Origin: Deltaproteobacteria bacterium
GTDB taxonomy: Bacteria; Myxococcota; Kuafuiibacteriia; Kuafuiibacteriales; Kuafuiibacteriaceae
Assembly: GCA_040218735.1 (NCBI GenBank)
Contig: JAVJQW010000046.1
Location: 96,001 to 160,000 of the forward strand
DNA length: 64,000 nt
Reading direction: 5' to 3'
Each line of letters begins with the position of its first letter. The first letter of the stretch is position 1. The position numbers and the translations under genes are program-made. This document shows, piece by piece, positions 7,443 to 32,689 of this stretch. Below the pieces are notes generated by a model. That model searched no databases and was not told where the DNA came from. It saw nothing but the letters and a program-made list of their open reading frames with translations.

Positions 7443-8660
7443 ATGCACACCTCGACGCCGCGATTCGCCTCGGGCCTTCTCCTCGCCCTCGTCGTCACCG
7501 CTTGTTCGGGAGGGGAGGAACCACCGCCCCCACCGCCGCCGACCCAGGTCCAGCTCACCGTGGTCGACGCGGTCGACGACGGGCCCCTCGCCGGCGCCTT
7601 CGTCTACGTCGCGGGCTCCGCCGGGTGGACCGAGGTGTCCGCGGACGGGGTCGTGACGCTGGAGGTCGACCCGGGCACCCACGCGTACTGGGTGGTCGCC
7701 CCGATGCACGTCACCGTGCCGCCGCCGCTCACCGACGCGCCGACGGTCGAGGCCGCCGCGAATCAGACCACCGAGGTGCGCGTCGTGGTGGACCGCCGCA
7801 GCGTCGGCGCCGCCGACGGGACGATCCGCGGCACGGTGACCGTAGACGGTACCCCCGCCGAGGGCGTCCTCGTGGTCGCCGCCGGCGTCCCGTCCTACGA
7901 GGGGTACTCGGACGCGACGGGCGCCTACGTGATCGCGGGCGTCGGCAACGGCAGCTTCCAGGTGCGCGCGCGGCAGGGCGGCACCGCCGGTGACGCATCG
8001 CAGAATGTCACGACGACGGCGGGGCAGACCTCGGACGGCGTCGACTTCGCGTTGGTGTCCGGCGGACAGGACGTGACCGGCACGATCGCCGGGGGCACCG
8101 GCTCCGGGCGCGTCGCGTTGCTCGACCCGGATGTTCGCCGTGTCGTCCCGGGGCTCTCGGTCTCGGCGGATCTGGCCTCCGGCTACACGATCACGGGCGT
8201 GCCGGCGGGGCGGTACCGACTGCTCGGCGCGTTCGACGCGGACGCCTACGTGATGGACCCCGAACCGATCCGCGAGAACGGGCTGCCCGTCGTCGACGTC
8301 GACGCCGCCGCCGTGACGCAGGACTTCGGCGTCGCCCCCGCGATCGATGGCCTCGCGCCGACGGGCACGGCGACGGCGACGCCGGAGCTCTCGTGGGCAC
8401 CGTTTGCAGGCGCGGACTACTACGTCGTCGACTTCCGTGACGCAGCGGGTCGAACCATCTGGGGTGGCTTCGACGCGACGGGGAACTGGTCGACGCGGAC
8501 CTTCGACACGTCCGTGATGTATGGCGGTCCGGCGCTCTCGCCGGGGGCGCGGTACACGTTCCGCGTGTTCGCTGCGGTGCAGGACCCGATCGTGCCCTCG
8601 GTGTTTGCGTTGGTCGCGGCGAGCGAGGCGGAGGGGGCGTCGTTCCGCGTGGCCCGGTGA
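7443..8660 (+). CDS. Lipoprotein with carboxypeptidase-regulatory/transthyretin-like beta-sandwich repeats
   Basis: ATG 7443, lipobox VVTAC, poly-Pro linker, GTIRGTVT and SDATGAYVIAGV repeats; the upstream part of track ORF 5448..8660 is antisense to gdhA. Confidence 0.75.
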   Translation: MHTSTPRFASGLLLALVVTACSGGEEPPPPPPPTQVQLTVVDAVDDGPLAGAFVYVAGSAGWTEVSADGVVTLEVDPGTHAYWVVAPMHVTVPPPLTDAPTVEAAANQTTEVRVVVDRRSVGAADGTIRGTVTVDGTPAEGVLVVAAGVPSYEGYSDATGAYVIAGVGNGSFQVRARQGGTAGDASQNVTTTAGQTSDGVDFALVSGGQDVTGTIAGGTGSGRVALLDPDVRRVVPGLSVSADLASGYTITGVPAGRYRLLGAFDADAYVMDPEPIRENGLPVVDVDAAAVTQDFGVAPAIDGLAPTGTATATPELSWAPFAGADYYVVDFRDAAGRTIWGGFDATGNWSTRTFDTSVMYGGPALSPGARYTFRVFAAVQDPIVPSVFALVAASEAEGASFRVAR

Positions 8661-8701
8661 GGGTTGACGTGGTTTCGAAAGGGTGGTCTGCGAAGAGGAC
8701 C

Positions 8702-10345
8702 ATGCGCGTTCGAACCGGGTTCTTCCTCATCGGCCTCTCGGCCTTCAGCTACGCCTGCGGCGGGATCTCCAACTGCAAGGAGGACGGCGCCGCGTGCGCC
8801 GAGATGCTGAACAAAAACGCGGAGAAGTGTGCCGCGGCCTACCAGCTCCGGCAGTCCGAGAAGAACCGGAAGTACTGCGTCAACGCGATCGACGTGGTGG
8901 GCGACCAGAAGATCGCCGCTGCGCTCCCCGGCCTGAAGGCGGTCCTGGCGGTTCCGGACTCGGACGTGCCGGACGACAAACACCGCGAAGAGGCGGTGAA
9001 GTCCCTCGCGCAGATCGGCGACGCGAGCGCGGTCCCGGATCTGGTCGCGGCGATCAACTTCACGGCGGGCACCAGCTCGGACCCGAAGGACAAGGCGGCG
9101 AACCTCACGAACGAGGCGATCGCGCAGGCGCTCGGTCAGCTGAAGGCGAAGGAGGCGGTGCCGAAGCTCATCGAGCTCACGAACAAGAGCCCGAACAACT
9201 ACGTCGTCCTGAAGTCGGTGCGTTCGCTCGGGCAGATCGGCGCGAAGGAGGCGGTGAAGCCGCTGGAGAAGATCGCGCTCGAGCACTCGAACAAGTTCAT
9301 GCGCAAGAACGCGGTCATCGCGCTGGGTGACATCGGCGATCCGTCGGCGACGGAGACGCTCATCCAGATGATGTTCGTCGAGTACCAGGGGGTGTCGTTC
9401 TACAAGGAGGCTTCGTTCGGCCTGTACCAGATCGGCCCGGCGACCTCCGAGGCGCTGATGAAGACGATGGCCGGCGAGAACAAGGAAGTGAACGCGTACT
9501 TCGAGAGCAAGGGTGGCCTGAAGACGTCGGCCATCAAGGCGAAGTGCGGGTTCGTGCTCGGTGACCTCCGCGACCCGCGCGCCGTCGAGCCGCTCCTCGA
9601 GGCCTTCAAGGAAGCGGCCGAGAAGCCGGACCCGGTGGTGCTCGTCTACGCGGCGGCGCCGCTCGGCGCGCTCGGCGACAAGCGCGCGGTGGGCCCGCTC
9701 GCGAAGGAGATGCTGACGCTCGACGCTTCGCTGCGCGACCCGATGATGCGTGCGCTCAACCACCTCGGCGATCGCTCGGTGGTGCCGGAGATGATCGAGG
9801 CGATGACGAAGGAGCACTTCGTCAAGGCGTGCATGAAGTCGGGCAACTCGAAGGAGGCCTGCACGAGCGACCAGACGAAGGCCTCGCTCTACGGCGCGCA
9901 GAAGGCGGCGATCGACCACGCGTCGAACCTCGCGGGCGCTGAGCACCTCGACGCCTACAAGAAGGCGGTCGAGGCCGAAGAGGACAAGGACATGAAGGAG
10001 TACGCGCAGGCGCGCCTGAAGCGCGTCGAGGCTGCGGGCGAGTGCAAGATGGACCCCGGCTGCTGGGTCAAGAAGCTGCAGGACTCCGACAAGCTGATCC
10101 GCGAGAAGGCCGCGTGGGAGCTCGGCCGCATCAAGGACAAGGGCTCGCTCGACGCCCTCGCGAAGGCGCTCCAGGACAAGAAGTCCGAGCCGCGCTCCGC
10201 CGCGATCATGGCGTACTGGGCCTTCGGCGACAAACGCGCCGTCGAGGCGATCGAGAAGCAGCTGGAAGACGAGGCCGGGATGGCGGACTACGTCCGCGTG
10301 AACGAGGACCTCAAGCGCCTGTTGGTCCACCTGAAGCGCTCGTAG
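8702..10345 (+). CDS. HEAT-repeat lipoprotein
   Basis: Lipobox-like SYAC; repeated ALGxIGDxxAVxxL HEAT-like units. Confidence 0.85.
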   Translation: MRVRTGFFLIGLSAFSYACGGISNCKEDGAACAEMLNKNAEKCAAAYQLRQSEKNRKYCVNAIDVVGDQKIAAALPGLKAVLAVPDSDVPDDKHREEAVKSLAQIGDASAVPDLVAAINFTAGTSSDPKDKAANLTNEAIAQALGQLKAKEAVPKLIELTNKSPNNYVVLKSVRSLGQIGAKEAVKPLEKIALEHSNKFMRKNAVIALGDIGDPSATETLIQMMFVEYQGVSFYKEASFGLYQIGPATSEALMKTMAGENKEVNAYFESKGGLKTSAIKAKCGFVLGDLRDPRAVEPLLEAFKEAAEKPDPVVLVYAAAPLGALGDKRAVGPLAKEMLTLDASLRDPMMRALNHLGDRSVVPEMIEAMTKEHFVKACMKSGNSKEACTSDQTKASLYGAQKAAIDHASNLAGAEHLDAYKKAVEAEEDKDMKEYAQARLKRVEAAGECKMDPGCWVKKLQDSDKLIREKAAWELGRIKDKGSLDALAKALQDKKSEPRSAAIMAYWAFGDKRAVEAIEKQLEDEAGMADYVRVNEDLKRLLVHLKRS

Positions 10346-10547
10346 ACACGCCGAGCCCTTCGAGCAGGCCGCGCAGCTCCTTCATCGCTTGGTCGAGCTG
10401 CTCCATCCGATCCGCGTTCCGCACCGCCGCCATCGCGATGTCCTCGCCGCAGTGCGGGCACGCGACCTCCTCCGGTTTCACGAAGCTCTTGCACGCGTGG
10501 CACAGCGCGAGCTGCGGCGGGACTCGGCCTTTCGCTCGGTTCGTCAC
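10311..10547 (-). CDS. Small zinc-ribbon protein (CHAC...CPHC) translationally coupled to the radical SAM gene
   Basis: GTG 10547 overlaps the rSAM TGA (GTGA); MTNRAKGRVPPQLALCHACKSFVKPEEVACPHCG followed by a helix. Confidence 0.7.
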   Translation of the reverse strand: MTNRAKGRVPPQLALCHACKSFVKPEEVACPHCGEDIAMAAVRNADRMEQLDQAMKELRGLLEGLGVSTSASGGPTGA

Positions 10548-11803
10548 GCGAGCACCACCAGTCGGGGGTGTCCGACCTGCGTGTGGCGCGGCTCGGCGGC
10601 GATGCGCTTCACTTCGGCGCCGTCGTCGATGCGTTCCTCGATCAGCTCGAAGCCGCCGTAGTCGAACGGCTGGCCGGGCGCCGCGCGCACCTTGACGATG
10701 CGCTCGCGGAGGCCCTCTTCGGCGAGCTTGAGCGCGCGGTAGTGGCAGTACGGGTTGTTGCCGCTGCGACCGAACAGCGTGTGCGTCGTCCACGTGCAGC
10801 CCGCGCGGCAGACGTCGGCGTAGTAGCAACCTTGGCAGCGCCCCCACAGGTCCGCCGTGGTGCGCGTGCGGTTGAACGCGAGGGCGTCGGCGTCGTTCCA
10901 GATGTCTTCGAGGCTCAGGTCGCGGATGTTGCCGCCCGAGAACGGCGTAGTCGGGAGCGACGGGCAGCCCTTGATCGTGCCGTCCGCCTCGATGCCGAGG
11001 GTGTTGAGCCCCGCGTTGCAGCCCTTGAAGTGGCTGAACTCACTCCGCCCGCGCCACGCGTGTTCGTAGGGGCCGAAGTAACCGATGTTGTTGCCGGGGA
11101 TGAGGTCGATGCCGTGGACCTTCGCCTTCTCCCAGAGCTCGAACAGCACCGGATAGATCTCGAGCAGCTCGTACGGCTGCACCAGGAGCGCGTCGTTGTC
11201 CGCGGCGCGGCCCATCGCGACGGTGAGTTGGATCTGCCAGGTCGCGATCCCGATCTCGATGAAACGATCGAGCATCGCCGGGAGCTCGCCGAGGATCGAG
11301 CTGTGGATCTGCGTGTTGACGCTCAGCTCCATGCCGTAGCGCTTGCACGTCTCGAGCGCGGTGATCGCCTTGTCGAACGAGCCCGGTACGCCGCGGATCG
11401 CGTCGTGTGTCTCGGCGAGCCCGTCGATCGAAACGCCGATGACGCGCAGCCCCGCCTCCGCCGCTTCGGCGACGCGTTTCTCGGTGAGGTTGCGCGCGCC
11501 GGTCTGAACGCCCGGCAGCATCCCCGCGTCCGCGACGGCGCGGATGAGCGTCGTCCAGTCCTTGCGGAGGTACGCTTCGCCGCCGATCAGCGTGACCTCA
11601 CGGCAGCCGAGCGCCGCGAGCTGCGTGACGACGTCGAGGCACTCCGCAGTGGACAGCTCGTCGGGGCGTCGGCGCGCGGCGCGCGACCCGCAGTGGTTGC
11701 ACTCCAGGTCGCACGCGAGCGTGATCTCCCAGACCGCGTGGGCGGGGAAGGGCGACGTCCAGTCGTCCTCCGTCAGCCTTCGGCCCGAGTCGATCGTCGC
11801 CAT
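10544..11803 (-). CDS. Radical SAM/SPASM peptide maturase, Y_X(10)_GDL-associated / splicease (PlpX)-like
   Basis: AVWEITLACDLECNHC (CX3CX2C), IGGEAYLR, SPASM cysteines GCNAG...KGCPSL...CQGCYYADVCRAGC...NNPYC, C-terminal APGQPFDYGGFEL. Confidence 0.9.
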   Translation of the reverse strand: MATIDSGRRLTEDDWTSPFPAHAVWEITLACDLECNHCGSRAARRRPDELSTAECLDVVTQLAALGCREVTLIGGEAYLRKDWTTLIRAVADAGMLPGVQTGARNLTEKRVAEAAEAGLRVIGVSIDGLAETHDAIRGVPGSFDKAITALETCKRYGMELSVNTQIHSSILGELPAMLDRFIEIGIATWQIQLTVAMGRAADNDALLVQPYELLEIYPVLFELWEKAKVHGIDLIPGNNIGYFGPYEHAWRGRSEFSHFKGCNAGLNTLGIEADGTIKGCPSLPTTPFSGGNIRDLSLEDIWNDADALAFNRTRTTADLWGRCQGCYYADVCRAGCTWTTHTLFGRSGNNPYCHYRALKLAEEGLRERIVKVRAAPGQPFDYGGFELIEERIDDGAEVKRIAAEPRHTQVGHPRLVVLA

Positions 11804-11805
11804 CG

Positions 11806-12429
11806 TCAGTTCCCTTGGATCGCCGCGTTGAGATCCTTGAGCGCTTCCATCGAAGCCGTCACGCCCTGCGGGGTCTCCGTCGAGCCACGCATGACGTTGG
11901 AGGCGCTCGCCGTCGCGAACACCGCAGCGCCGCGGCGCGGTGCGGCCGCGATGCCCGTGCCGTCGGTCGACGTCGTCGCCACAGAGGCGACCGGCGTCAG
12001 CGTGTCGGCCGCGTGCGCGGAGAGCATGCGCGCCATCGCGAGCTTCTCGGGGTTGCTCGGATCAGCGCGGACCTCTTCGGCGGCGCGACGAATCGCCACC
12101 GCGTACAGCGCCACGATCTCGTCGCCCGGGCGCGTGTCGGGGAGCGCGCCCATCATGCGGAGGAACGTCGCGCGCGCGGCCGGCTCCATCGCCTTGCCGC
12201 CGAGCAGCTTCGCGAGGCCTTCGCGGGCCTCCTTCGCGTAGGTCGTGGGCCCGCCGTCCATCGCGCGCGCGGTCGCCGGGTCGGCGTCGAACGCGGCCTT
12301 GATCGCGTTCATCTCCTGCCAGGTGATCTGCCGGCCGCCGAGGCTGCCGGAGTCGGCGAAGGCGTCGACTTGGATCTTCGCGGCGGCGAGGAGCTGTTGG
12401 GTGGTGTTGGGCGTCTTTCCGATGGCCAT
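11806..12429 (-). CDS. Hypothetical Ala-rich protein, candidate substrate of the radical SAM enzyme
   Basis: GGAG RBS upstream, stops 2 nt before the rSAM start, contains IVALYAVAI. Confidence 0.7.
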   Translation of the reverse strand: MAIGKTPNTTQQLLAAAKIQVDAFADSGSLGGRQITWQEMNAIKAAFDADPATARAMDGGPTTYAKEAREGLAKLLGGKAMEPAARATFLRMMGALPDTRPGDEIVALYAVAIRRAAEEVRADPSNPEKLAMARMLSAHAADTLTPVASVATTSTDGTGIAAAPRRGAAVFATASASNVMRGSTETPQGVTASMEALKDLNAAIQGN

Positions 12430-12586
12430 GGAGGTTCTCCGAGTGCGTTTCTAGCGGGCGGGGTGTGGGTGCATGACGGCCCGTGTAGTTGTTATCGGAA
12501 GCTCGTTTGCCCTGTTGCTCGGATCTCGCACCCGAATCCGACGCCGCGATCGGGCCTTTGTCCCGACCGGCGCGTGCCCTCGAGGA

Positions 12587-13237
12587 CTACAGCTGGGTCA
12601 TCGCGTACGCGTAGAGCTTGTACGCTTGGGTGCCGGGGTCGTTGTACGGGACCCCGAGCGTCGCGCAGAGGCGGCGATCGTAGAGCAGGTCGACGACCTT
12701 CTCGTGGATCTGGTGCTGCTGCGCCTGCGTGAGCGTCTCCCACTGCGCCGCGACCTGTGCCTCCGAGAGCACGGGCGTCGTGAGGTCCTCGGCGGTGACG
12801 GTCTGGGCCACCCAGGGGCGCGCGGCGGGTCGAAGCTCGACGTTTGCGCGCGGATCGTTCGTGCGGAGGAGCCGCGCGAGGTCACACGCCTTCGCGAGCG
12901 TCGTCAGGAGCTCGGCGGGAGACCACGGCTTGCCGACGAAACGAAACACCTGCGTCTCGTTGATCGCACGAATGACGGTCGAGCGCCGCGGGTCGCCGGT
13001 CAGCAGAATGGTGACGACGCTCGGGTGCCGCTCCGCGATCCACGCGAGCAGGTCGAGCCCGGTCGACCCCGGCATGAGGTGGTCGGCGACGACGACGTCG
13101 ATGCGCGTGGAGTCGAGGAGCGTCTGCGCGTCGTTGACGCACTCGACCGGATAGACGCGCGCGCCCAACTTCTTCACGACGCGCGAGAGCGTTCGAAGCT
13201 CGGCGCGGTCGTCGTCGACCAACAGCACGTGATCCAC
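12587..13237 (-). CDS. Response regulator receiver protein with uncharacterised C-terminus
   Basis: VLLVDDD, VVADHLMPG, LLTG, FVGKPW; GTG 13237 is the likely start. Confidence 0.85.
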   Translation of the reverse strand: MDHVLLVDDDRAELRTLSRVVKKLGARVYPVECVNDAQTLLDSTRIDVVVADHLMPGSTGLDLLAWIAERHPSVVTILLTGDPRRSTVIRAINETQVFRFVGKPWSPAELLTTLAKACDLARLLRTNDPRANVELRPAARPWVAQTVTAEDLTTPVLSEAQVAAQWETLTQAQQHQIHEKVVDLLYDRRLCATLGVPYNDPGTQAYKLYAYAMTQL

Positions 13238-13367
13238 CGGCGGTTCCCCTCTCCCCGGAATAACACGAGGGACCGAGTGTGGGTTGCACCGAGTTGAGAT
13301 TAACTTCACGTCGCGCTTGGAGAACGCCCGGACGTTCGGACAGGTCTGCGGCGGCGCGCCGGCCCGG

Positions 13368-13799
13368 TCACCACTCGCCGACGTTGGGCATCGACGCCCA
13401 CGGCTCTTGCACGGGGCGCGCTTCTCCGCGCTGCAACAGTTCGATCGAGATCAGATCCGGTGAGCGGATGAAAGCCATCCGGCCGTCGCGCGGCGGGCGG
13501 TTGATCGTGACCCCCGCGTCCAGCAGGCGCTGGCACAGCGCGTAGATGTCGTCGACTTCGTACGCGAGGTGACCGAAGTTCCGGCCGACGGTGTACGCCT
13601 CCTCCTGGTCCCAGTTGTAGGTGAGCTCGACGTGGGGGGCGTCGGCGTCCTTGGCGCGGGTCGTGGCGAGGAAGACGAGCGTGAAGCGCCCCTTCTCGGA
13701 GTCGCGGCGTCGCACCTCGTGCATGCCGAGTTTGTTCACGAAGAAGTCGAGCGCGGCGTCCAGGTCGCGGACGCGGATCATCGTGTGGAGGTATCGCAT
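13368..13799 (-). CDS. gloA: Lactoylglutathione lyase / VOC family protein
   Basis: [43 protein letters not shown]...IELL. Confidence 0.9.
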
Positions 13800-21396: not shown

Positions 21397-22071
21397 TCAG
21401 ACGCGACGGACGAGGCCGCGGACGGCGTCGTGGACGCGGCGGTCGAAGAGGCTGGAGACGTGCGCGCGGTCGTCGAGGATCAGCTGCTGCGCGCCGGCCA
21501 AGAGCGCGCTGTCGAACGGCTCGATGAACTGGTCGGCGCGCGCGGCGACGGTGAGGACGCGGTCCTCGAGGCGGCGCAAGCGATCTTGCGTCGCGAGCAC
21601 CTCGGTCATCATCGTGCTGTCGGGGCGGAGCATCCGGAGCTTGGCGCTGGGCGCGAACTTCGAGCGCCACGTCCCGTGCAGCGGCGCGCAGATGGAGACG
21701 AAGCCGGCGACGTGCGGGAGCGCGACCTCGCTCTGCAGCACCATCCGCAGGAGCAACCCGCCGAGGCTGTGGCCGACGACGACGAGGCGATCGACCCGCG
21801 CGCCGAGCTGTTCGATGTGCGCGGCGAGGTCGCGGGCGCGCCCGCGGGGGTCGGTGAGTGAGTTGTACTCGAAGGAGCCGAACCAGTCGGCCTCGTCTTC
21901 GAGGGCGGTCCGCATCGAGAGGAACTGCGCGCCGTTCGCGCCGAGCCCGGGGACGAAGAGCACGCCGACGTCGGCGTGACCCGTGGCGTTGCGGTCGAGC
22001 CGGCGGCGCTGGGGCGCGAGGAGCCCGAGGCGCACGTAGGCGAACGCTTCGTCACGGAGGAGGCGGAACAC
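21397..22071 (-). CDS. Alpha/beta-fold lipase/esterase
   Basis: FVPGLG oxyanion region, GHSLGG nucleophile elbow, PLHGT, C-terminal His. Confidence 0.85.
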   Translation of the reverse strand: MFRLLRDEAFAYVRLGLLAPQRRRLDRNATGHADVGVLFVPGLGANGAQFLSMRTALEDEADWFGSFEYNSLTDPRGRARDLAAHIEQLGARVDRLVVVGHSLGGLLLRMVLQSEVALPHVAGFVSICAPLHGTWRSKFAPSAKLRMLRPDSTMMTEVLATQDRLRRLEDRVLTVAARADQFIEPFDSALLAGAQQLILDDRAHVSSLFDRRVHDAVRGLVRRV

Positions 22072-22076
22072 GTGCG

Positions 22077-22991
22077 TTACTTCTTCCCGGGGACCTTCGG
22101 CACCGGGATGTCGCCGAAGAGGCTCTTGCCGTGGTTGTGGCCGTCGTCCTCGGTGCCGGAGCCGCGTTCGAGATCCTGACCCGTCGACAGCGAGAACCGC
22201 CCTGGTTCGAGGATGGTGTGGAACGCGCGCTCACCGAGCCAGCGGAAGAGGAGGTCGCGGCCCCCGATGCGCACGAGCCAGTCGAGCGCGGCGTTGGCGG
22301 CGACACTCATCTCGTTGGCGGCTTCCGCGCGGAACATGGAGTGGCGCCAGATGAGTTTGCCGTCGCGCCAACTCTCGAGCCCGAGGGTGACTCGGGCGGC
22401 GCGCTGGCGTGGGTTGGGTTGTTTCATCGACTCGACGCCGACCTTGAGGATGACTTCCGCCTGTTTGGCCGGGACGAAGTCGATCGAGAACCCAGCCGTC
22501 TTCAGGCCTTTTTCGAACGCCGCCTGAATCGTCTTCTTGTCGAGGTCCGCGCCGCGCACGAGGAGTGCGGCCTTCAGCGTGCGTTGTTTCTTCGTGCCGA
22601 GTTTTTTCTTCGCGTAGGCGTGGTTTGCGAGCGTGCGATCGAACCAGGCTTTCAGCCCGGGCTCGGTGAGATCGAGCCTCGCGAAGGTCGTGAACGCCTT
22701 CTCCCAGCGGATGGCCTCCGGGAGGCGTTCGTTGCCGCGGAGCTTCTTGCGCAGCTCGATCGCGGCGTCGCGCAGCTTGAGTGAGATGACGAGGTTCGGG
22801 TCGCTGCGGTGTTTGTCTTGCGCGGCGTCGAGGACGGCTTGAGCGTTGGACGGGCCGCGGTTGTCGTCGAGCTCGGCCTCGGCGGCCTGGGCGACGGTGG
22901 CCCGGAGGACCTCCGGCAGCGCCGGGTCGAGGCGTTCGGTCATGCCCGCCTGCGCGGCGAGCGTGAGGGCGATGGCGGCGAGGGCGCTCAC
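22077..22991 (-). CDS. Hypothetical exported protein
   Basis: GTG 22991 overlaps the redoxin stop; hydrophobic N-terminus VSALAAIALTLAAQAG. Confidence 0.6.
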   Translation of the reverse strand: MSALAAIALTLAAQAGMTERLDPALPEVLRATVAQAAEAELDDNRGPSNAQAVLDAAQDKHRSDPNLVISLKLRDAAIELRKKLRGNERLPEAIRWEKAFTTFARLDLTEPGLKAWFDRTLANHAYAKKKLGTKKQRTLKAALLVRGADLDKKTIQAAFEKGLKTAGFSIDFVPAKQAEVILKVGVESMKQPNPRQRAARVTLGLESWRDGKLIWRHSMFRAEAANEMSVAANAALDWLVRIGGRDLLFRWLGERAFHTILEPGRFSLSTGQDLERGSGTEDDGHNHGKSLFGDIPVPKVPGKK

Positions 22992-23578
22992 TTCTTCTTG
23001 GGCTTGGCTTTGTCGTGCGCGGCGAGGGTCGTCTCGATCTCGGCCGAGAAGTACTCGACGAGTGAGCCCTTCGCGTCGTGCTTCGACTTGACGACCTTGC
23101 CTTCGCGGTCGATCAGGAACGTAGCGGGGAGGGCGACGACCTTCCCGAGGTACTTCTGCGAGACGTAGTCGGCGCGGTCCACGACGACGGTGAACGGGAG
23201 CTTCTTCTCGTCGAGGTAGCGTTGGAGCTTCTTGGCGTCGTCGTCGCCCTCTTCGACGAGCGCGACGAGGAGCACGTAGAGGCCGCGCGCCTGGTACTTC
23301 TCGTGGGTCTTCACGAGCTCGGGCATGGCGGCGAGGCACGGCTCGCAGTCGGTGCGGAAGAAGTCGAGCAGCACGGGGCGCTTGGGGGCGTAGCTGCGCT
23401 CGCGGCCTTCGTAGGCGAGGTCCGACAGGCGGACCATCGCGCGGTCGAGGGCGCGGAGCTGGAACGCGGGCGCGGCGTCGCCGGGCTTGGGCGTCTTCGA
23501 CTTCTTCTTGGGGCGGGCGGTCGCGGTGCTCGCGGCCATGAGGCCGGCGAGGAGCAGGCACGCGGTCGTCTTGGTCAT
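22988..23578 (-). CDS. TlpA/peroxiredoxin-like redoxin
   Basis: Signal peptide, GDAAPAF, CEPC active site, LPATFLIDREG. Confidence 0.85.
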   Translation of the reverse strand: MTKTTACLLLAGLMAASTATARPKKKSKTPKPGDAAPAFQLRALDRAMVRLSDLAYEGRERSYAPKRPVLLDFFRTDCEPCLAAMPELVKTHEKYQARGLYVLLVALVEEGDDDAKKLQRYLDEKKLPFTVVVDRADYVSQKYLGKVVALPATFLIDREGKVVKSKHDAKGSLVEYFSAEIETTLAAHDKAKPKKK

Positions 23579-23589
23579 TCGAAATCCAC

Positions 23590-24717
23590 TCACTTGTCGA
23601 GCGCTCCCAGGGAGGTCTGCAGCCAGCTCACCATGTCGGCTTCGGCTTTGCTGCAGCCTTTCTCCATGGCGCCTTTGAAATGGACGTGTCCACCCTTCTG
23701 GGGCTTCACTTCTTTTACGGAAATCACGCGATTGGCGTCCGTGTCGTAGACGACGCCCCGGGCGCCGCAGTGGACGAAGGTGAACCCGTCCTCCTTAGCG
23801 GTCAGGTTGGCGCTGTACTGGACGGCGAGGACGTAACCCGCGTTGCGGAGCGAGGTGGTCGACTCGGGGTTCGACTGGGCGAGGATCTGTCGGGCGAGTC
23901 CGCCGTCGACGGCTTCCGTCGCGACCTTGAACCCGCCGGTGGCGACCTGCTGTTTGATGGCGCCGACGCGGTGGGATTGGCAGGACGCCTCTTTGCCGTC
24001 GTGGTCGCACTCGACGGCGACGGCCATGACGCCCTTCCGCTCCTTGGCCATCGACTCGAGGCGGGTCGAGAGGTCGGCGATGGCGTCGTACAGGAGGGTG
24101 GTGTTGGTCAGCTTGGCGTGTCGGACCGGGACCATGGAGCGCATCGGGCCGAGGGTGGTCTTGGCTTCGGCGCACCGGGTGCGGGCTTCGGACCAGCGTT
24201 TGTTGGTCGCGGCGGTGTCGGCGGCGATGTAGAGGTCGAGCGCGCGCTGGGCGCGGTCCTGCTGGCCTTGGACGACCTCGGCGTAGCGGGCTTTGGGCCA
24301 CTCGATGAGGACGTAGGCGTCGTACGAGCCGTCGCTGCCCTGGCCGATGGCGGCGTCCTTCACTTCGGCTTCCTTGATGGTCATCTCGTCGCCGGCGACG
24401 TCGACGGTGAGCGAGTACGACTGGTTGAGGACGCCGTTCTTCTCGACCTCTTCGGAGACGGCTTCGGACTTGGCCGTGGCGCCGCAGAAGACGGTCAGCT
24501 CGGCGAGGGCGGCCTGGACGGCGAGCTCACGGGCCATGGACTCGTCGGACGCGCCGTTGGCGGCCCCGACGAAGTACAGCTTGCTCACGCCGGTGGGCTT
24601 CTTCGCGTACCAGCCGGGCGCGGGGAAGCTGGTCCGGCTCCCGCCGGTGCTGCCCTTGGTGGTGCCGCAGCCGACGGCGACGCCGAAGACGAGGGGCCAG
24701 AGCCATCCGAGCTTCAT
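23590..24717 (-). CDS. Lipoprotein, LPP20-like N-terminal domain
   Basis: Lipobox AVGC; PGWY...LYFVG...ARELAVQAALAEL. Confidence 0.7.
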   Translation of the reverse strand: MKLGWLWPLVFGVAVGCGTTKGSTGGSRTSFPAPGWYAKKPTGVSKLYFVGAANGASDESMARELAVQAALAELTVFCGATAKSEAVSEEVEKNGVLNQSYSLTVDVAGDEMTIKEAEVKDAAIGQGSDGSYDAYVLIEWPKARYAEVVQGQQDRAQRALDLYIAADTAATNKRWSEARTRCAEAKTTLGPMRSMVPVRHAKLTNTTLLYDAIADLSTRLESMAKERKGVMAVAVECDHDGKEASCQSHRVGAIKQQVATGGFKVATEAVDGGLARQILAQSNPESTTSLRNAGYVLAVQYSANLTAKEDGFTFVHCGARGVVYDTDANRVISVKEVKPQKGGHVHFKGAMEKGCSKAEADMVSWLQTSLGALDK

Positions 24718-24798
24718 GGACTCTCAATACTTGGTAACCCCGGGGGGAAACAATCCATTTGTCCCCTCGGGGGGGCGATCACGCACGTCGGCGGGGCG

Positions 24799-25443
24799 TC
24801 AGGCGTAGGACAGGGCGGGGGCGCTTCGCAGGTAGGCGGCGGATTCGAGCTGCTGGAGCATGAACCCGGCGACGTCGGCGCGGGAGATCTTCAGCGTGAG
24901 GTCGGCGTCGGGGGTGCCGAGGCCGTGCCAGAAGTCGCCGGTGGAGGGGCCGTCGGTGAGGTTCGGGGGGCGAACGATGGTCCAGTCGAGGCCGCTGGTG
25001 CGGATGATGGCCTCTTGCGCCTCGTGCTCCTGGAGGGGGCGGCGAAGGTACGTCGGGAAGATGATCCAGCGGTAGAGCGCGGGGAGGTCCTTCTTGCTGT
25101 CGCCGGCCCCGAGCACGGAGACGCAGACGAGGCGGCGGACGTTGGTCGCGCGCATGGCGTCGACGATGGTCTGCGTGCCTTCGGAGCGGACGCGGCTCTT
25201 GCTGAGCGCGGGGGCGCCGAGCGCGATCAGGGCAGCGTCGGCGTTCTTGAGCGCGAGGCGGACGACGGCGGGGTCGTGCACGTCGCCTTCGACGACCGAC
25301 AGGCGCGGGTGCTCGGGCAGCTTGCTCGGGTCGCGCGCCAGGGCGGTGACGCGGTGGCCGAGAGCGAGCGCTTGGTCGAGGAGCGCGCGTCCGATGCCGC
25401 CGGTGGCGCCGAAGAGGGTGAGGTGGGTGTTCGTTGTTTTCAT
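24799..25443 (-). CDS. NAD(P)H-binding flavin-reductase-like SDR
   Basis: FGATGGIG, ARDPSKL, LDWTIVRP, ISRADVA. Confidence 0.88.
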   Translation of the reverse strand: MKTTNTHLTLFGATGGIGRALLDQALALGHRVTALARDPSKLPEHPRLSVVEGDVHDPAVVRLALKNADAALIALGAPALSKSRVRSEGTQTIVDAMRATNVRRLVCVSVLGAGDSKKDLPALYRWIIFPTYLRRPLQEHEAQEAIIRTSGLDWTIVRPPNLTDGPSTGDFWHGLGTPDADLTLKISRADVAGFMLQQLESAAYLRSAPALSYA

Positions 25444-25478
25444 GGGCTCAGCATGGCGTTTGGCTGGCCATGAGCCAA

Positions 25479-25493
25479 ATGATTGACGACCAT
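25479..25493. promoter_or_regulatory. Putative LysR-type operator (ATG-N9-CAT)
   Basis: ATGATTGACGACCAT fits the T-N11-A LTTR box, between the divergent SDR and LysR genes. Confidence 0.45.
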
Positions 25494-25499
25494 AGCGGC

Positions 25500-26453
25500 A
25501 TGACGGACGTGCATGGTCTGGCGAGCCTCGACGCGAACCTGTTGGTGACGTTGGACGTGTTGCTCGCGGAGCGGAACGTAACGCGCGCGGCGGAGCGGGT
25601 GGGGGTGACGCAGTCGGCGATGAGTCACACGTTGCGTCGGCTGCGGGACTTGTTTGGCGATCCGTTGTTGGTGCGCGGGAAGGGGGAGATGGTGCTGACG
25701 CCGCGGGCCGAGGCGTTGGTGGTGCCGTTGCGGAGTGGGTTGGTGAGTTTGGCGCGGGCGATCGCGCCGCCGGTGGCGTTTGATCCGTCGACGGCGTCGC
25801 GGGTGTTTCGGATCGCTTCGCCGGACTTGTTCGATCTGATCGTGTTGCCGCGGTTGCTGGCGCGGGTTCGTGCGGAGGCGCCGGGGGTGGATCTGGTGTT
25901 CGTGCCGTTGCCGCGCGGCGAGGTGGCGGAGGCCTTGATGACGGGGGAGCTGGATCTGGCGATCGTGCCGGTGCGGATGGGGGAGGGAGAGGCGACGTTC
26001 GGGCCGGTGACTTCGGGTGACTTGATGCGGCGGGTTTTGTTCCGCGACTCACACCGGGTTTTCGTGCGGCGGGAGCACCCGGCGATGGGTAAGCGGGGGA
26101 TCTCGAGGAAGAAGTACGTGGGGCTGCCGCACGTGTTGGTGTCGCCGGCTGGGGCAGGCGTTGGGTTGGTGGACGAGGCGCTGGCGCGGGTGGGTTTGCG
26201 TCGGCGGGTGGCTTTGCGGGTGCCGAACTTCGCGACGGCCGCGGAGATCGTGGCGGGGAGTGACTTGGTGCTCACGGCGCCAGGGGCCTTGGGGCGGGTC
26301 GAGGCGCTGCGGGGGCGTATGAGTGATTGCGCGGTGCCGGTGGAGATGGAGGGGCATGCGCTGACGATGGTGTGGCACCCGAGGTTCGGTGAGGAGGCGG
26401 GGGCGCGGTGGTTGCGCGGGGTGATGGTGGACGTGGGTGGGGGCGCGGGGTGA
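25500..26453 (+). CDS. LysR-family transcriptional regulator (NodD/DntR-like)
   Basis: LDANLLVTLDVLLAERNVTRAAERVGVTQSAMSHTLRRLR HTH followed by a substrate-binding domain. Confidence 0.95.
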   Translation: MTDVHGLASLDANLLVTLDVLLAERNVTRAAERVGVTQSAMSHTLRRLRDLFGDPLLVRGKGEMVLTPRAEALVVPLRSGLVSLARAIAPPVAFDPSTASRVFRIASPDLFDLIVLPRLLARVRAEAPGVDLVFVPLPRGEVAEALMTGELDLAIVPVRMGEGEATFGPVTSGDLMRRVLFRDSHRVFVRREHPAMGKRGISRKKYVGLPHVLVSPAGAGVGLVDEALARVGLRRRVALRVPNFATAAEIVAGSDLVLTAPGALGRVEALRGRMSDCAVPVEMEGHALTMVWHPRFGEEAGARWLRGVMVDVGGGAG

Positions 26454-26585
26454 TCTTCGGATCAGGCGGAGGCTGAGGGGCGGCGTGTGATACGCTCGTC
26501 CGCGACACCGTCGTTCTGCGGGACTGCGAGATGGTGTCGCCGCGGGGGGGTATCTCGTTCGTTCTGCAAGACCGCGAAACGCTTA

Positions 26586-26592
26586 GTTAGGC
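26586..26592 (+). mobile_element. Integron core recombination site GTTAGGC (5' boundary of the first cassette; attI-like)
   Basis: Exact reverse complement of the inverse core GCCTAAC at 27649-27655. Confidence 0.7.
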
Positions 26593-26610
26593 CGATTTGG
26601 AGTTAGAGCC

Positions 26611-27654
26611 GTGTGGAAGTTCAAGCACGTGACCGCCTGGCAACTCGTTGGAGTCCAGCCACCTAAGTCCGATGTCGTGCTGCAATCTGCACGGTCCCTA
26701 CGAATAGTCTTCACCGCCGACATCGCACCGTTCGTCGTCGAGGCCGACCGCGCGCGGGTCGTGCCTGAGATGCTTCTTCGAGGCGAAGCAGGAGAAGGTG
26801 CCGCTTTGCGGCTTCGAAGCAACGTAGAGAAGGTCCGCAGACAGCGTCCCGACCGCGGCGCCTGGCTCGTCTTCGAGATGACCGGAGACGCGCAACCAGT
26901 TGACACAACAGGTGCCGCCGACTGGGAGGATGTTCGCGTCCTCCCGATTCCCGCAACGGAATCGCCAGGACACGCGTCTTCCTATAGCCCCGACGCCCCG
27001 ACGGTTCGCCGTTTAGCCGGGGCAGCCGCCGCCATCCTTCAGCCACGACAGATGCGCCAGTTCGCCAGCAACACGGCGCTCCTTGATGACGCCGGTCGAC
27101 AGGTGTACGCGACACGCCTCGTCATTCCGGGCGCCGAGCTGTTCCTATCGGAGGTTCCCGACCCTGTGCTTCTTGGGCAGTCCAAGAAGCTGTTCGGCAG
27201 GCTCGACACCGACCTCCGGTTGAATTCGGCGCTCGAACTACTTGCGGCTTCGCAGGACGACTGCTTTGACGACCAACGCGAGTTCCATATCTCTTGGGTA
27301 GCCGTCGAGGCCTTTGCGAAGGCACTACGCAAGGATTACAAGGCGAAGTACAAGACAATCGTCAGCAGTCCAATAGGCGGTGGTCAGCTGCTTACGATCC
27401 AGACGAACACGTCGAAGCAGAACGGATCGATTTCAAAAACCATGGTTGCTCTTGCCTACATCTTTGTATGTCTTGACCCCGCGGGTGCCGAGGCCGACTT
27501 CGATGAAGTCGATCGAATTCGCGATCAGCGGAACGACTATGTCCATTCACAACCTGATTCGAAGCTGCAGCATGGTCCCGAGTCGAGGCGACTCCGGGCG
27601 ATCCTCTTCAAGTACGTTTTGCTACACCTTCAGGGGGGCGCGCGAACGGCCTAA
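26611..27654 (+). CDS. Cassette-borne protein with C-terminal HEPN-like (ApeA-like) RNase motif
   Basis: Lower-GC codon usage; ISWVAVEAF and RNDYVH (RX4H); the TAA stop lies inside the attC inverse core. Confidence 0.7.
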   Translation: MWKFKHVTAWQLVGVQPPKSDVVLQSARSLRIVFTADIAPFVVEADRARVVPEMLLRGEAGEGAALRLRSNVEKVRRQRPDRGAWLVFEMTGDAQPVDTTGAADWEDVRVLPIPATESPGHASSYSPDAPTVRRLAGAAAAILQPRQMRQFASNTALLDDAGRQVYATRLVIPGAELFLSEVPDPVLLGQSKKLFGRLDTDLRLNSALELLAASQDDCFDDQREFHISWVAVEAFAKALRKDYKAKYKTIVSSPIGGGQLLTIQTNTSKQNGSISKTMVALAYIFVCLDPAGAEADFDEVDRIRDQRNDYVHSQPDSKLQHGPESRRLRAILFKYVLLHLQGGARTA

Positions 27655-27709
27655 CAACCCGTTGAAGACTGACGGGGCTTCGCCCCGCAGCTTAACGGGA
27701 GCGTTAGAC
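27649..27709 (+). mobile_element. Intact attC site (59-base element)
   Basis: GCCTAAC...CCCGTTGAAG...CGGGGCTTCGCCCCG...CTTAACGGG...GTTAGAC: a 61-bp imperfect palindrome with RYYYAAC and GTTRRRY ends. Confidence 0.92.
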
Positions 27710-27727
27710 GTAAGGAGGCCTGAGCAC

Positions 27728-27820
27728 GTGGACTTTAGATCGCACTTCTCTGCAGTCGTCGAGAGACTCCAGGCCGAGTATCGTCTTGCAGCGGCCTACC
27801 CGTATCGTGGAGGCAGTTGA
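27728..27820 (+). pseudogene. Truncated cassette gene remnant
   Basis: Strong RBS AAGGAGG just after attC, GTG start, stop after about 30 codons (VDFRSHFSAVVERLQAEYRL...). Confidence 0.4.
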
Positions 27821-28001
27821 GGCCTGGGTCGGCAAAGACCTTGTATACGCTGCGGGACGCTTGGGAGACCTCGAATGGACCCTTCGTATCGATCCCCGCT
27901 CCCAACAGGTCGTTCACGTGGAGACCTACGAGTGATTAACAGTGCTCCTCCGGCCGGCCAATGCTGGCACCAGGTTCGCCGACGTTCGTACGAGGAAAGC
28001 T

Positions 28002-28064
28002 GCCGAACAACACGTCGCAGAGGGACGGACGGCTTCGCCGAGCGCTGAACGTGAGTGCTACGGC
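28002..28064 (+). mobile_element. Degenerate attC site
   Basis: GCCGAAC...CACGT...CGGCTTCGCCG...GCTGAACGTG...GCTACGGC; right core decayed. Confidence 0.65.
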
Positions 28065-28103
28065 GACGTGTGGGTGGCTGCCAGAAGTGCTAGGTTAGAA
28101 ACG

Positions 28104-28718: not shown

Positions 28719-28721
28719 ACG

Positions 28722-28775
28722 CCGGTTAGCAGCACACGCGGGCTTCGCCCCGCAGAATAGTCTGAGTGTCAGGGC
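28722..28775 (+). mobile_element. Degenerate attC remnant
   Basis: GGGCTTCGCCCCGCAG core shared with the intact attC; ends in GTCAGGGC. Confidence 0.55.
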
Positions 28776-28788
28776 TACGAGTAGATAC

Positions 28789-29424: not shown

Positions 29425-29464
29425 GATGACGGCGATTCCAGACCACTGCTCGCTGGGGTCTGTA

Positions 29465-29560
29465 GGCGGCTGAGCAATCGCGTTCCAACGGCGACACGAC
29501 GCTTCGCCGCCCGCCGCTGAACGCCAGCGCTGAACAGACCACGGCTTCGCTCCAGCCTGA
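29465..29560 (+). mobile_element. Degenerate attC remnant(s)
   Basis: GCTTCGCCGCCCGCCGCTGAACGC and a second CGGCTTCGC, matching the GCTTCGCC / GCTGAACG signature of the other sites. Confidence 0.5.
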
Positions 29561-32687: not shown

Positions 32688-32689
32688 CG

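What the first reader, a model, noticed from the sequence alone, without database searches (positions are those of the whole stretch)
10311..12429. Splicease-type radical SAM operon with a 207-aa protein substrate candidate (LYA) and a detached zinc-ribbon partner
Seen: three tightly coupled minus-strand genes, a 207-aa protein, the rSAM/SPASM enzyme (2-nt gap) and a 78-aa CxxC-x10-CxxC protein (GTGA overlap). Established: the enzyme's motifs match the Y_X(10)_GDL-associated/PlpX splicease clade, which excises tyramine from XYG motifs to leave alpha-keto-beta-amino acids. Seen: neither neighbour has YG; the 207-aa protein has only two Tyr (TTYAK, IVALYAVAI), and the second resembles the hydrophobic A-x-Y-G-V splice context, placed mid-protein. 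Inference: a whole protein is backbone-spliced at a YA site, with the zinc ribbon acting in trans as a recognition/leader element. My recollection that myxobacterial precursors carry a similar fused zinc ribbon is unverified here.
Basis: partly seen in the sequence, partly recalled or inferred. Interest (0 to 1): 0.82.

Follow-up and report, generated by a model that had tools for sequence, protein, structure and literature searches.

The report
Splicease-type operon with split zinc ribbon
Three coupled genes encode a radical-SAM enzyme of the tyramine-splicing family, its own zinc-ribbon tail split off as a small separate protein, and a 207-residue protein that probably gets its backbone rewritten at one conserved tyrosine followed by alanine instead of the textbook glycine.

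Summary
Three minus-strand genes lie at 10311-12429: a 207-aa protein, a 419-aa rSAM/SPASM enzyme 2 nt downstream, and a 78-aa CxxC-x10-CxxC protein joined by a GTGA overlap.

The enzyme sits in the TIGR03913 clade (571.8 bits; cut-off 591.75), next to the PlpX family.

The zinc ribbon is not a precursor part. It matches positions 420-477 of the enzyme model. It is fused to the enzyme in 55 of 93 related loci and is a separate ORF in 21, mostly Myxococcota. Independent assemblies show no indel at the junction.

The 207-aa protein is a near-orphan: 3 homologues in 5.8 billion proteins. Its block IVALYAVAI recurs in the otherwise unalignable upstream proteins of orthologous loci. It aligns with the start of Pfam DUF1843, the Y-x10-GDL domain encoded beside these enzymes.

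In that family the Tyr is invariant. The next residue is Gly in 88 and Ala in 49 of 138 domains, so LYA is a family-wide variant of the XYG site.

Not shown: that this clade excises tyramine, or that YA is processed. The complex prediction gave no verdict. Scott et al. 2022, the key survey, could not be read.

Verdict: a divergent member of a catalogued system, of moderate interest.

The parts
11806..12429 (-). Gene for the 207-aa candidate substrate protein (stop codon included)
   Evidence: ORF, with GGAG 6 nt before the ATG. Only 3 homologues in 5.77 billion proteins and 1 representative in 1.84 billion. dN/dS 0.47 against L012. BLASTP to the upstream protein of orthologous locus L011: E 8e-5, 28 of 88 identical.
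12091..12117 (-). Core motif I105-V-A-L-Y109-A-V-A-I113. The Tyr109 codon is 12103-12105. This is the predicted modification site.
   Evidence: Invariant in 4 of 4 homologues. The same 9-mer is in the upstream proteins of L011 and L009; the YG version is in L010. An HMM built from 98 motif segments of other clades aligns exactly here: 9.9 bits, E 2.4e-5 for a single-sequence test. hhalign places it on the YG site of DUF1843 precursors: E 0.0028, probability 10.9%.
11809..11853 (-). C-terminal helix S193-MEALKDLNAAIQGN-207. It resembles the family's terminal ALxxLKAEIAKLE helix and is a possible recognition ('follower') element.
   Evidence: Read by eye from the sequences printed and the alignment. 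Not tested statistically.
10544..11803 (-). Gene for the 419-aa radical SAM/SPASM enzyme. The CX3CX2C motif C31/C35/C38 lies at 11690-11713.
   Evidence: TIGR03913 571.8 bits (cut-off 591.75), model positions 5-401 of 477; TIGR04103 476.3 bits. Pfam Radical_SAM and SPASM. The radical-SAM and SPASM cysteines are invariant in 11 of 11 aligned relatives. dN/dS 0.18.
10311..10547 (-). Gene for the 78-aa zinc ribbon plus helix protein. The GTG start overlaps the enzyme's stop as GTGA. C16xxC19-x10-C30xxC33 lies at 10449-10502. It is the detached C-terminal domain of the enzyme family.
   Evidence: Matches TIGR03913 model positions 420-477, E 4.6e-12. A separate ORF in the same frame offset follows the enzyme in L012, L011, L009 and L010. 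A DNA contig of an independent run bridges the junction with 0 gaps. dN/dS 0.31.
12430..12586 (-). 157-nt intergenic region upstream of the cassette; presumed promoter region
   Evidence: Position only. The sigma-70 consensus scan found 0 sites in 9800-13600.

Best explanation
This is a three-gene protein-maturation cassette of the DUF1843 / 'GDL-motif peptide' branch of the splicease-like radical SAM/SPASM enzymes.

Shown:
- The three genes are translationally coupled.
- The enzyme belongs to the TIGR03913 clade.
- The 78-aa protein is that enzyme family's C-terminal zinc-ribbon-plus-helix domain, split off by gene fission. The split is conserved in the related Myxococcota loci.
- The 207-aa protein carries, next to the enzyme gene, the family's core motif around an invariant Tyr, with Ala where most members have Gly.

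Inferred:
- The enzyme and the zinc-ribbon protein reassemble into one holoenzyme.
- It docks the 207-aa protein through the core IVALYAVAI and probably the C-terminal helix.
- As in PlpX-type spliceases, it removes all of Tyr109 except its carbonyl carbon (a tyramine equivalent, C8H9NO, about -135.07 Da). It then joins that carbon to the carbonyl of Leu108. The result is an alpha-keto-beta-leucine ketoamide followed by Ala110, inside an otherwise intact protein.

What the modified protein does is unknown. By analogy with other ketoamide products, an electrophilic protease-directed warhead is the obvious guess.
For: Enzyme.
- TIGR03913 571.8 bits and TIGR04103 (the PlpX family) 476.3 bits.
- Radical-SAM and SPASM cysteines invariant in 11 of 11 relatives.
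- In a quick tree of 91 rows, the enzyme groups with L012 and L011 (support 100) inside the 67-row clade that holds all 55 fused enzymes.

Zinc ribbon.
- Matches enzyme-model positions 420-477.
- Of 93 loci: fused in 55, separate ORF in 21, not found in 17.
- No indel at the junction in two independent assemblies.

Substrate.
- IVALYAVAI is shared with the upstream proteins of L011 and L009. L010 has PIRALYGVFI and VVRPLYGVFI.
- BLASTP of the 207-aa protein to the L011 protein gives E 8e-5.
- The L011 protein scores 23.0 bits on Pfam DUF1843 (cut-off 23.3), starting 2 residues before the Tyr.
- Family HMM: 138 domains in 59 of 93 loci, all on the enzyme's strand. After the Tyr come G 88, A 49 and M 1. 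Five loci have only YA.
- An HMM built only from the part after GD finds 116 domains, and 116 of 116 have a Tyr 10-13 residues upstream.
- No other copy of the motif exists in a real frame in the 11.6-Mb genome.
- The proven PlpA2 splice tag GGPIRPLYGLPI (passages of PMC10533398) resembles the family core, such as VIRPLYAVTI.

Protein-sized substrates are normal here. Pseudomonas, Burkholderiaceae and Chromobacterium loci encode 190-230-aa DUF1842-DUF1843 proteins.
Against: - No call shows any chemistry. Every paper I could read describes the site as XYG. I could not check whether the TIGR03913 clade, or any YA site, has been tested.
- The 207-aa protein fails every formal family test. There is no Pfam or NCBIfam hit even at E 10. 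It is not among the hits at E<10 when the family HMM is run on the whole genome. hhalign probability is only 10.9%. The GD(L) that gives the family its name is missing.
- The link therefore rests on a 9-13-residue motif, gene position and one weak pairwise match.
- A motif does not guarantee modification: the DYG site of RcsA was not spliced (PMC11626197).
- The enzyme ORF alone scores below the TIGR03913 cut-off.
- The AlphaFold2 model of the 207-aa protein is unusable (pLDDT 46).
Confidence: 0.6

Rival explanations
1. Same cassette and same Tyr109 target, but this clade's chemistry is not tyramine excision. It could be another radical modification of the Tyr or its neighbours, such as a cross-link or a C-H functionalisation.
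For: The enzyme is below the cut-off of the PlpX-family model: TIGR04103 476.3 bits against 725. None of the texts I could read reports an assay of a TIGR03913-type enzyme. Ala after Tyr departs from the XYG rule stated in all of them.
Against: The enzyme matches the PlpX-family model over positions 5-382 of 412 at E 6e-143. The family core, P-[L/M/P]-Y-G-V, looks like proven splice tags. Per a review, 27 splicease-substrate pairs from a mining effort that found such enzymes in 189 genera were confirmed (PMC10849128). That set may well include this clade.
Confidence: 0.15
2. The 207-aa protein is not a substrate. It is either a degenerate relic of a DUF1843 precursor or an accessory or scaffold protein, and the enzyme acts on an unlinked protein or is idle.
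For: The GDL signature is lost, and no family model recognises the protein. Its overall dN/dS of 0.47 is the loosest of the three genes. Its full-length family is tiny.
Against: The block DEIVALYAVA[IL]RRAA is the longest invariant run across homologues down to 50% identity. The family HMM finds no convincing target elsewhere in the genome: the best is E 0.19. Gene order and coupling are conserved in the same-genus genome. The enzyme is under strong constraint (dN/dS 0.18). The YA-only loci L040, L053, L060, L069 and L011 would likewise have no substrate.
Confidence: 0.15
3. One reading: the 78-aa zinc ribbon is a leader-like recognition element that belongs to the precursor side and is supplied in trans.
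For: It is a separate small protein coupled to the enzyme gene. A role in substrate docking is not excluded by anything here.
Against: It is homologous to the enzyme's own C-terminus (TIGR03913 positions 420-477). The CxxC...CxxC scan was run only on the enzyme's C-terminal tail and the 420 nt downstream of its stop. There it found the ribbon fused to the enzyme in 55 of 93 loci. The upstream proteins were not scanned for it, and none of those I printed shows one.
Confidence: 0.07
4. The split between enzyme and zinc ribbon is a frameshift error or a recent pseudogenising mutation.
For: The fused form is the majority in the sample (55 of 93). The enzyme ORF alone falls just under the family cut-off.
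Against: The same frame offset with an ATGA or GTGA-type overlap is seen in L012, L011, L009 and L010. There are 21 split loci in two clades. A DNA contig of run X2 covers 10200-10729 with 2 differences and 0 gaps. A 33.5-kb contig of run X3 has no indel there. dN/dS of the small ORF is 0.31.
Confidence: 0.02

Closest known systems
PlpX/PlpY/PlpA and PcpXYA spliceases of Pleurocapsa (type I spliceotides; NCBIfam TIGR04103)
   Same: rSAM/SPASM enzyme of the same superfamily branch: 476.3 bits on TIGR04103. The substrate is encoded next to the enzyme. The target Tyr sits in a hydrophobic P/A-L/M-Y context like the PlpA2 tag PIRPLYGLPI. Three components are involved.
   Different: Below the TIGR04103 cut-off of 725. 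The site is LYA, not XYG. There is no Nif11/NHLP leader and no PqqD-like Y protein. The third component here is a zinc-ribbon fragment of the enzyme itself. The substrate is a 207-aa protein with the site in mid-chain.
[quoted passage not shown] In C. subtsugae the operon is quorum-sensing induced (PMC12114271, passages).
   Same: Best-scoring enzyme family and the same clade in the tree. The substrate gene lies directly upstream on the same strand. The invariant Tyr is followed by Gly or Ala. Substrates are protein-sized, about 200 aa.
   Different: The zinc ribbon is detached. The upstream protein has no DUF1842 barrel and no recognisable DUF1843: GD(L) is missing and the region between the core and the terminal helix is longer (about 80 residues against about 35). 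There is one precursor gene instead of two to four.
RhaX/RhaA binary splicease of Rheinheimera, and the engineered X-Y and X-leader fusions (PMC11414181; parts 1 and 2 of 4 of the text read)
   Same: A helix supplied by the leader, by a Y protein or by a C-terminal fusion to the enzyme activates splicing. Here the enzyme family naturally carries a C-terminal zinc ribbon plus helix, either fused or as a separate protein.
   Different: No homology between the zinc-ribbon protein and Y proteins or leaders was tested or seen. The functional parallel is my inference only.
PqqE/PqqD/PqqA and other rSAM/SPASM RiPP systems in which an accessory domain occurs fused or free
   Same: SPASM enzyme: PqqE 6c8v at E 5.3e-15 and SkfB 6efn at E 6.7e-19 are the nearest solved structures. 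An accessory module is found either fused or split.
   Different: The accessory module here is a zinc ribbon, not a PqqD-like RRE. The chemistry is different.

Membership tests
[quoted passage not shown] | Whole-protein HMM score at or above the curated cut-off of 591.75 bits | tested here: inconclusive
   The 419-aa ORF scores 571.8, below the cut-off. The 78-aa ORF adds 45.1 bits on model positions 420-477. The simple sum of 616.9 would pass, but the two are separate proteins and a sum is not a formal score.
[quoted passage not shown] | Radical SAM CX3CX2C motif plus SPASM auxiliary-cluster cysteines | tested here: met
   Pfam Radical_SAM 77.6 bits and SPASM 36.5 bits. C31, C35, C38, C262, C280, C323, C326, C332, C336 and C353 are invariant in 11 of 11 relatives.
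[quoted passage not shown] | C-terminal zinc-ribbon domain as part of the enzyme | tested here: not met
   Present, but as a separate translationally coupled ORF. It is fused in 55 of 93 related loci and separate in 21.
[quoted passage not shown] | Adjacent gene for a Y-x10-GDL peptide or protein. The wording of the motif is recalled; the spacing was measured. | tested here: inconclusive
   No Y-x(8-12)-GD[LIVM] in a real frame nearby. The neighbour keeps the Tyr core (E 2.4e-5 for a single-sequence test) but lacks GD(L).
Pfam PF08898 DUF1843 (for the 207-aa protein) | Score at or above the gathering threshold of 23.3 bits | tested here: not met
   No DUF1843 hit even at E 10. The homologous protein of L011 reaches 23.0 bits. 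hhalign against 16 DUF1843 precursors gives E 0.0028, probability 10.9%.
Pfam PF08898 DUF1843 (for the 207-aa protein) | Invariant Tyr at domain position 3, and Gly of GD eleven residues later | tested here: inconclusive
   The Tyr is present and conserved. The Gly/Asp is absent: the sequence reads Y-AVAIRRAAEE-VRA. In the family, 116 of 116 domains have the Tyr, 110 of them at exactly Y-x10-GD.
Splicease, PlpX type (NCBIfam TIGR04103; spliceotide pathways) | HMM score at or above the cut-off of 725 bits | tested here: not met
   476.3 bits.
Splicease, PlpX type (NCBIfam TIGR04103; spliceotide pathways) | XYG motif in the cognate precursor | tested here: not met
   The 207-aa protein has no YG; its two Tyr are both followed by Ala. 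The orthologous locus L010 has two LYG sites at the homologous position.
Splicease, PlpX type (NCBIfam TIGR04103; spliceotide pathways) | PqqD-like Y protein (required in type I systems only) | tested here: not met
   No PqqD-like family in the three genes or in four flanking ORFs. Binary systems also lack it (PMC11414181).
Splicease, PlpX type (NCBIfam TIGR04103; spliceotide pathways) | [quoted passage not shown] | not testable with these tools
   Needs co-expression and mass spectrometry.

The most novel reading that the evidence does not exclude
Three linked proposals.
1. The splice rule of this large enzyme branch is X-Y-[G/A], not XYG.
2. Recognition runs through a C-terminal 'follower' (the DUF1843 helices) rather than an N-terminal leader. 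Some precursors have the Tyr at residue 6, as in L034.
3. The family's zinc-ribbon-plus-helix tail is the natural counterpart of the activating helix that Y proteins or leaders supply in other spliceases.

In Myxococcota that tail has split off. This would create, by gene fission, a second and non-homologous kind of three-component splicease, one that works on whole proteins such as this 207-aa orphan.
Probability: 0.25. Interest if true: 0.6.

Novelty: new variant of a known kind. Interest (0 to 1): 0.42.

Why it matters
Tyramine splicing is the only known way cells put alpha-keto-beta-amino acids into ribosomal proteins, and it is being developed as a protein-engineering tool.

- If YA sites are processed, the accepted XYG motif is too narrow. 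Surveys that count YG (as one review describes the 2022 survey) would then miss a third of the sites in the largest non-cyanobacterial branch.
- The fused and split forms of the zinc ribbon offer a ready-made natural experiment on what that domain does.
- DUF1842-DUF1843 proteins were still treated as 'unknown function' in a 2024 structure paper that never mentions radical SAM (PMC10994174). The link therefore deserves stating.

For this locus alone the gain is modest: it is a divergent, lineage-restricted member of that system.

Tried and rejected
- Complex prediction: enzyme plus zinc-ribbon protein plus the 207-aa protein as partner. The verdict was 'no answer' (scores 0.21 and 0.31; mark 0.32; controls not run). 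I use it neither for nor against binding.
- AlphaFold2 of the 207-aa protein from a 4-row alignment: pLDDT 46.4, unusable.
- ESM Atlas: no usable hit by features; structural rows all had TM 0.41 or lower.
- PDB by sequence: no splicease structure, and no hit for the 207-aa family.
- NCBIfam on the upstream proteins of L011, L010, L009 and the window: nothing meaningful.
- A Y-x(8-12)-GD[LIVM] scan of the window in six frames: three hits, none near the operon, two of them in off-frame ORFs.
- The family HMM on all 137,269 six-frame ORFs of the genome did not recover the 207-aa protein at E<10. Its three weak hits (E 0.19-0.54) were not followed up.
- Promoter and terminator scan: 0 promoter-like sites; 1 terminator-like site on the plus strand, no more than the shuffles give.
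- Literature. Scott et al. 2022 (Chem) is not held. Searches for TIGR03913, TIGR04103, rSAM_nif11_3 and 'GDL motif', for 'spliceotide' and for DUF1843/DUF1842 found no paper linking DUF1843 or YA sites to splicing. Supplements were closed and I did not ask for them. So I cannot say that YA splicing is unpublished.
- RNA-library contigs of runs X19 and X20 touch parts of the enzyme gene and 12207-12357 of the 207-aa gene. Contigs from an RNA library do not prove transcription; I treat this as a hint only. Parts of the stretch without cover in those runs mean nothing.
- The careful tree search did not finish, so one search is the quick tree.

Caveats on my counts.
- L010 and L024 are the same sequence, so the 93 rows are 92 distinct loci.
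- The fused/split classes come from a CxxC...CxxC pattern. Only the five loci were checked ORF by ORF. Some 'not found' rows end at a contig end (for example L070).
- The 98 training segments of my HMM were picked with a pattern that required Y[AG]. The invariance of Tyr is therefore partly by construction. (an HMM of the part after GD only) was the control, but most of its hits are the same sequences.
- L091 and L092 were dropped from the tree because their match contains a stop.

Full report
**What is there.** The window (68% G+C) lies on contig 59 of an 11.6-Mb genome. On the minus strand there are three tightly packed ORFs:
- 11806-12429, 207 aa;
- 10544-11803, 419 aa;
- the frame 10311-10847, whose GTG at 10547 gives a 78-aa protein.

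GGAG lies 6 nt before the first ATG. There are 2 nt between the first stop and the second ATG. The second and third genes share a GTGA overlap. The small protein reads CHAC-x10-CPHC. The 207-aa protein has two Tyr (TTYAK and IVALYAVAI) and no YG.

The flanks do not belong to the cassette. Upstream on the same strand, after a 157-nt gap, is a response-regulator receiver protein, then a glyoxalase-family gene. Downstream is a convergent HEAT-repeat gene. In the same-genus genome the cassette sits directly after the glyoxalase gene, with no receiver gene between. The three genes therefore move as a unit.

**The enzyme.**
- TIGR04103, the PlpX-type 'nif11-class maturase 3': 476.3 bits (cut-off 725).
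- Pfam finds Radical_SAM and SPASM.
- The cluster cysteines are invariant in 11 of 11 aligned relatives.
- The nearest solved structures are only SkfB and PqqE.

The genome has two further enzymes of this kind on other contigs, at 452.2 and 399.9 bits.

**The zinc ribbon.** The 78-aa protein matches the last part of the enzyme model, TIGR03913 positions 420-477, at E 4.6e-12. It is therefore the enzyme family's own C-terminal domain, made here as a separate protein.

The split is conserved:
- tblastn finds the ribbon directly after the enzyme, in the same frame offset, in the same-genus locus L012 and in L011, L009 and L010.
- The ORFs there start with ATG or GTG overlapping the enzyme's stop.

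In a wider sample I had 93 loci: 80 from named genomes plus 13 from the relatives search. L010 and L024 are identical, so 92 are distinct. A CxxC...CxxC ribbon is fused to the enzyme in 55. It lies in another frame just downstream in 21, nearly all Myxococcota. It was not found in 17.

The split is not an assembly error:
- A DNA contig from an independent study covers 10200-10729 with 2 differences and no gap.
- A 33.5-kb contig from a third study spans the whole cassette. Its only indels are -1, -1 and +2 at 11937-11949 (net zero, in a low-complexity part of the 207-aa gene) and +1 at 12446 (intergenic).

dN/dS against L012 is 0.31 for the ribbon, 0.18 for the enzyme and 0.47 for the 207-aa gene.

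**The 207-aa protein as a full-length protein.** No Pfam or NCBIfam model recognises it. It has 3 homologues among 5.77 billion proteins, at 91, 71 and 50% identity. It has a single representative in 1.84 billion. Within these four sequences the longest invariant block is DEIVALYAVA[IL]RRAA. Y109 is kept in 4 of 4, while Y64 is Phe in one.

**The shared core motif.** The decisive observation came from the genes upstream of orthologous enzymes. These proteins do not align with the 207-aa protein in tblastn, yet they carry the same core:
- L011, 175 aa: PPIVALYAVAINDA;
- L009, 359 aa: HPIVALYAVAIDTT;
- L010, 176 aa: PIRALYGVFINDD and VVRPLYGVFIQTQ.

So the LYA of this locus stands where a relative has the canonical LYG. 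Pairwise BLASTP gives weak but real similarity: E 8e-5 to the L011 protein (28 of 88 identical, ending in the motif) and E 0.005 and 0.013 to that of L009.

**What that motif is.** Across the 80 named loci the upstream ORFs share P-[L/M/P]-Y-[G/A]-x-x-[I/L/V]-x-x-A-x-x-x-G-D-[L/V]-x-x-M-K...A-L-x-x-L-K-A-E-I-A-K-L-E. This is Pfam DUF1843 (PF08898), which begins two residues before the Tyr:
- 81.6 bits for a 64-aa protein;
- 68.5 bits for the C-terminus of a 200-aa Chromobacterium protein whose N-terminus is DUF1842;
- three stretches in a 146-aa Undibacterium protein;
- 23.0 bits, just under the cut-off, for the L011 protein.

It is also the Y-x10-GDL signature in the NCBIfam name. I recall the wording, but the spacing was measured: 110 of 116 domains have Tyr exactly 11 residues before the Gly.

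**How often Ala follows the Tyr.** An HMM of 98 unique motif segments, none from the window's own clade, finds 138 domains in 59 of the 93 loci. All are on the enzyme's strand. After the Tyr come Gly 88, Ala 49 and Met 1. Before it come Leu 76, Pro 54, Met 6 and Ala 1. Five loci have only YA.

Because my training set was chosen with a pattern that demanded Y[AG], I repeated the count with an HMM of the part after GD alone. There 116 of 116 domains have the Tyr, followed by G 76, A 39 and M 1.

YA and YG occur in paralogues within one cluster. Pseudomonas has a 62-105-aa PPYG protein plus about 215-aa and about 193-aa PLYA proteins. They even occur in repeats of one protein: Undibacterium has YA, YA, YG. 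So Ala after the Tyr is a normal state of this family.

**How firmly the 207-aa protein belongs.** Only loosely.
- The family HMM aligns to residues 105-117 with 9.9 bits, E 2.4e-5 when that one protein is the whole search space. In a search of all 137,269 six-frame ORFs of the genome it does not reach E 10.
- hhalign against 16 short DUF1843 precursors puts residues 100-119 on the YG site, with E 0.0028 and probability 10.9%.
- GD(L) is gone.
- By eye, a terminal helix (MEALKDLNAAIQGN) resembles the family's ALxxLKAEIAKLE. The stretch between the core and this helix is about 80 residues instead of about 35.
- On the other side, the degenerate core motif occurs only 3 times in 20.27 million six-frame residues of the genome, and the other two are in Ser/Arg-rich off-frame ORFs. 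Finding it by chance in the one gene beside the enzyme is unlikely.

**Place among relatives.** In a quick maximum-likelihood tree of 91 enzymes (careful search unfinished; two rows with an internal stop dropped), the window's enzyme groups with L012 and L011 at support 100. This group lies inside the 67-row clade that contains all 55 fused enzymes. The genome's two paralogues fall in the other clade. Its members have no ribbon, and their upstream proteins carry several proline-rich sites such as PLYGKAP and PHYGLPP.

**What the literature adds.**
- Spliceases excise a tyramine equivalent (C8H9NO) from Tyr in XYG and join the Tyr carbonyl carbon to the preceding residue's carbonyl. [quoted passage not shown]
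- Cyanobacterial type I systems need a small Y protein. Other systems are binary. A helix from the leader or from Y activates the enzyme and still works when fused to the enzyme's C-terminus.
- Per a review, the 2022 survey mined by YG frequency and confirmed 27 pairs (PMC10849128). Another paper counts 939 predicted systems. I could not read the survey itself.
- The Gly is not chemically part of the rearrangement as these texts describe it. Ala is therefore plausible, but none of them mentions it.
- In Chromobacterium subtsugae an operon of two DUF1842 proteins, one DUF1843 protein and the GDL-motif maturase is induced by quorum sensing (PMC12114271, passages).
- A 2024 crystallography paper on a DUF1842-DUF1843 protein calls its function unknown and never mentions radical SAM (PMC10994174, passages).

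**Mechanism proposed.**
- Shown: gene coupling, enzyme family, the origin of the ribbon, and the conserved Tyr core beside the enzyme.
- Inferred: the ribbon protein rejoins the enzyme; the 207-aa protein docks by its core and perhaps its terminal helix; Tyr109 is excised, leaving a Leu-derived ketoamide before Ala110.
- Open: what the product does. The cassette has no protease or exporter gene.
- Odds: about 0.6 for the whole picture, and roughly even odds that the YA site in particular is spliced.

**Verdict.** The system is a divergent, lineage-restricted variant of a catalogued family. Its wider value is as a pointer to three family-level questions: X-Y-[G/A] sites, follower-type recognition, and a domain that occurs both fused and split.

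Noticed in passing
L002 (G000 contig 67, 25215-29435) and L003 (G000 contig 28, 67344-71492): The same genome has two more splicease-like rSAM/SPASM genes (452.2 and 399.9 bits on TIGR03913) with no zinc ribbon. Their upstream proteins carry proline-rich YG sites: a 227-aa protein with PEYGLPP, PLYGKAP and two PHYGLPP, and a 140-aa protein with MACYGLPPC. Two further weaker rSAM/SPASM hits lie about 8-10 kb from L003 (L004, L006).
   Followed up: partly
L074, L077, L079, L081, L083, L086-L088, L092, L095-L097: A second Myxococcota clade of these enzymes also has a detached zinc ribbon (consensus CPxCxRHVRxxxxxCPFC). My scans found no DUF1843-like or clear YG/YA precursor within 1.5 kb upstream. 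Its substrates are unidentified.
   Followed up: no
L030, L035, L037, L042, L045 and other Pseudomonas loci; L033, L041, L073 (Chromobacterium): These clusters hold three tandem precursor genes of different sizes: about 62-105 aa with PPYG, about 206-220 aa, and about 193-208 aa. In Pseudomonas both long proteins carry PLYA. In Chromobacterium the first long one carries LYG and the second PLYA. The tested long form (the 200-aa L033 protein) has an N-terminal DUF1842 beta-barrel domain. This suggests a mixed set of protein and peptide substrates for one enzyme.
   Followed up: partly
L034 3065-3274: A 69-aa precursor beside a split-ribbon enzyme has the conserved Tyr at residue 6 (MVIVMYGTAI...). 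No N-terminal leader can exist there; recognition must lie C-terminal of the site.
   Followed up: no
window 26000-30000: G+C drops to 0.59-0.63 against about 0.68 elsewhere. No Rfam family was found in 22000-33000. The ORFs at 26611-27654 and 27942-28718 have no Pfam family. The ORF at 28789-29424 is a SUKH-1 (SMI1/KNR4) protein at 25.7 bits, a type often found as an immunity protein. A LysR regulator lies at 25434-26453. This is possibly a small acquired island.
   Followed up: partly
window 10311-10345: The 3' ends of the zinc-ribbon gene (minus strand) and the convergent 562-aa HEAT-repeat gene (8657-10345, plus strand) overlap by 35 nt.
   Followed up: no
window 11803-11805, in run X3: In a relative about 97% identical, the enzyme's ATG reads TTG and the 2-nt spacer also differs. 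The start codon of the enzyme is therefore not fixed within the lineage.
   Followed up: no
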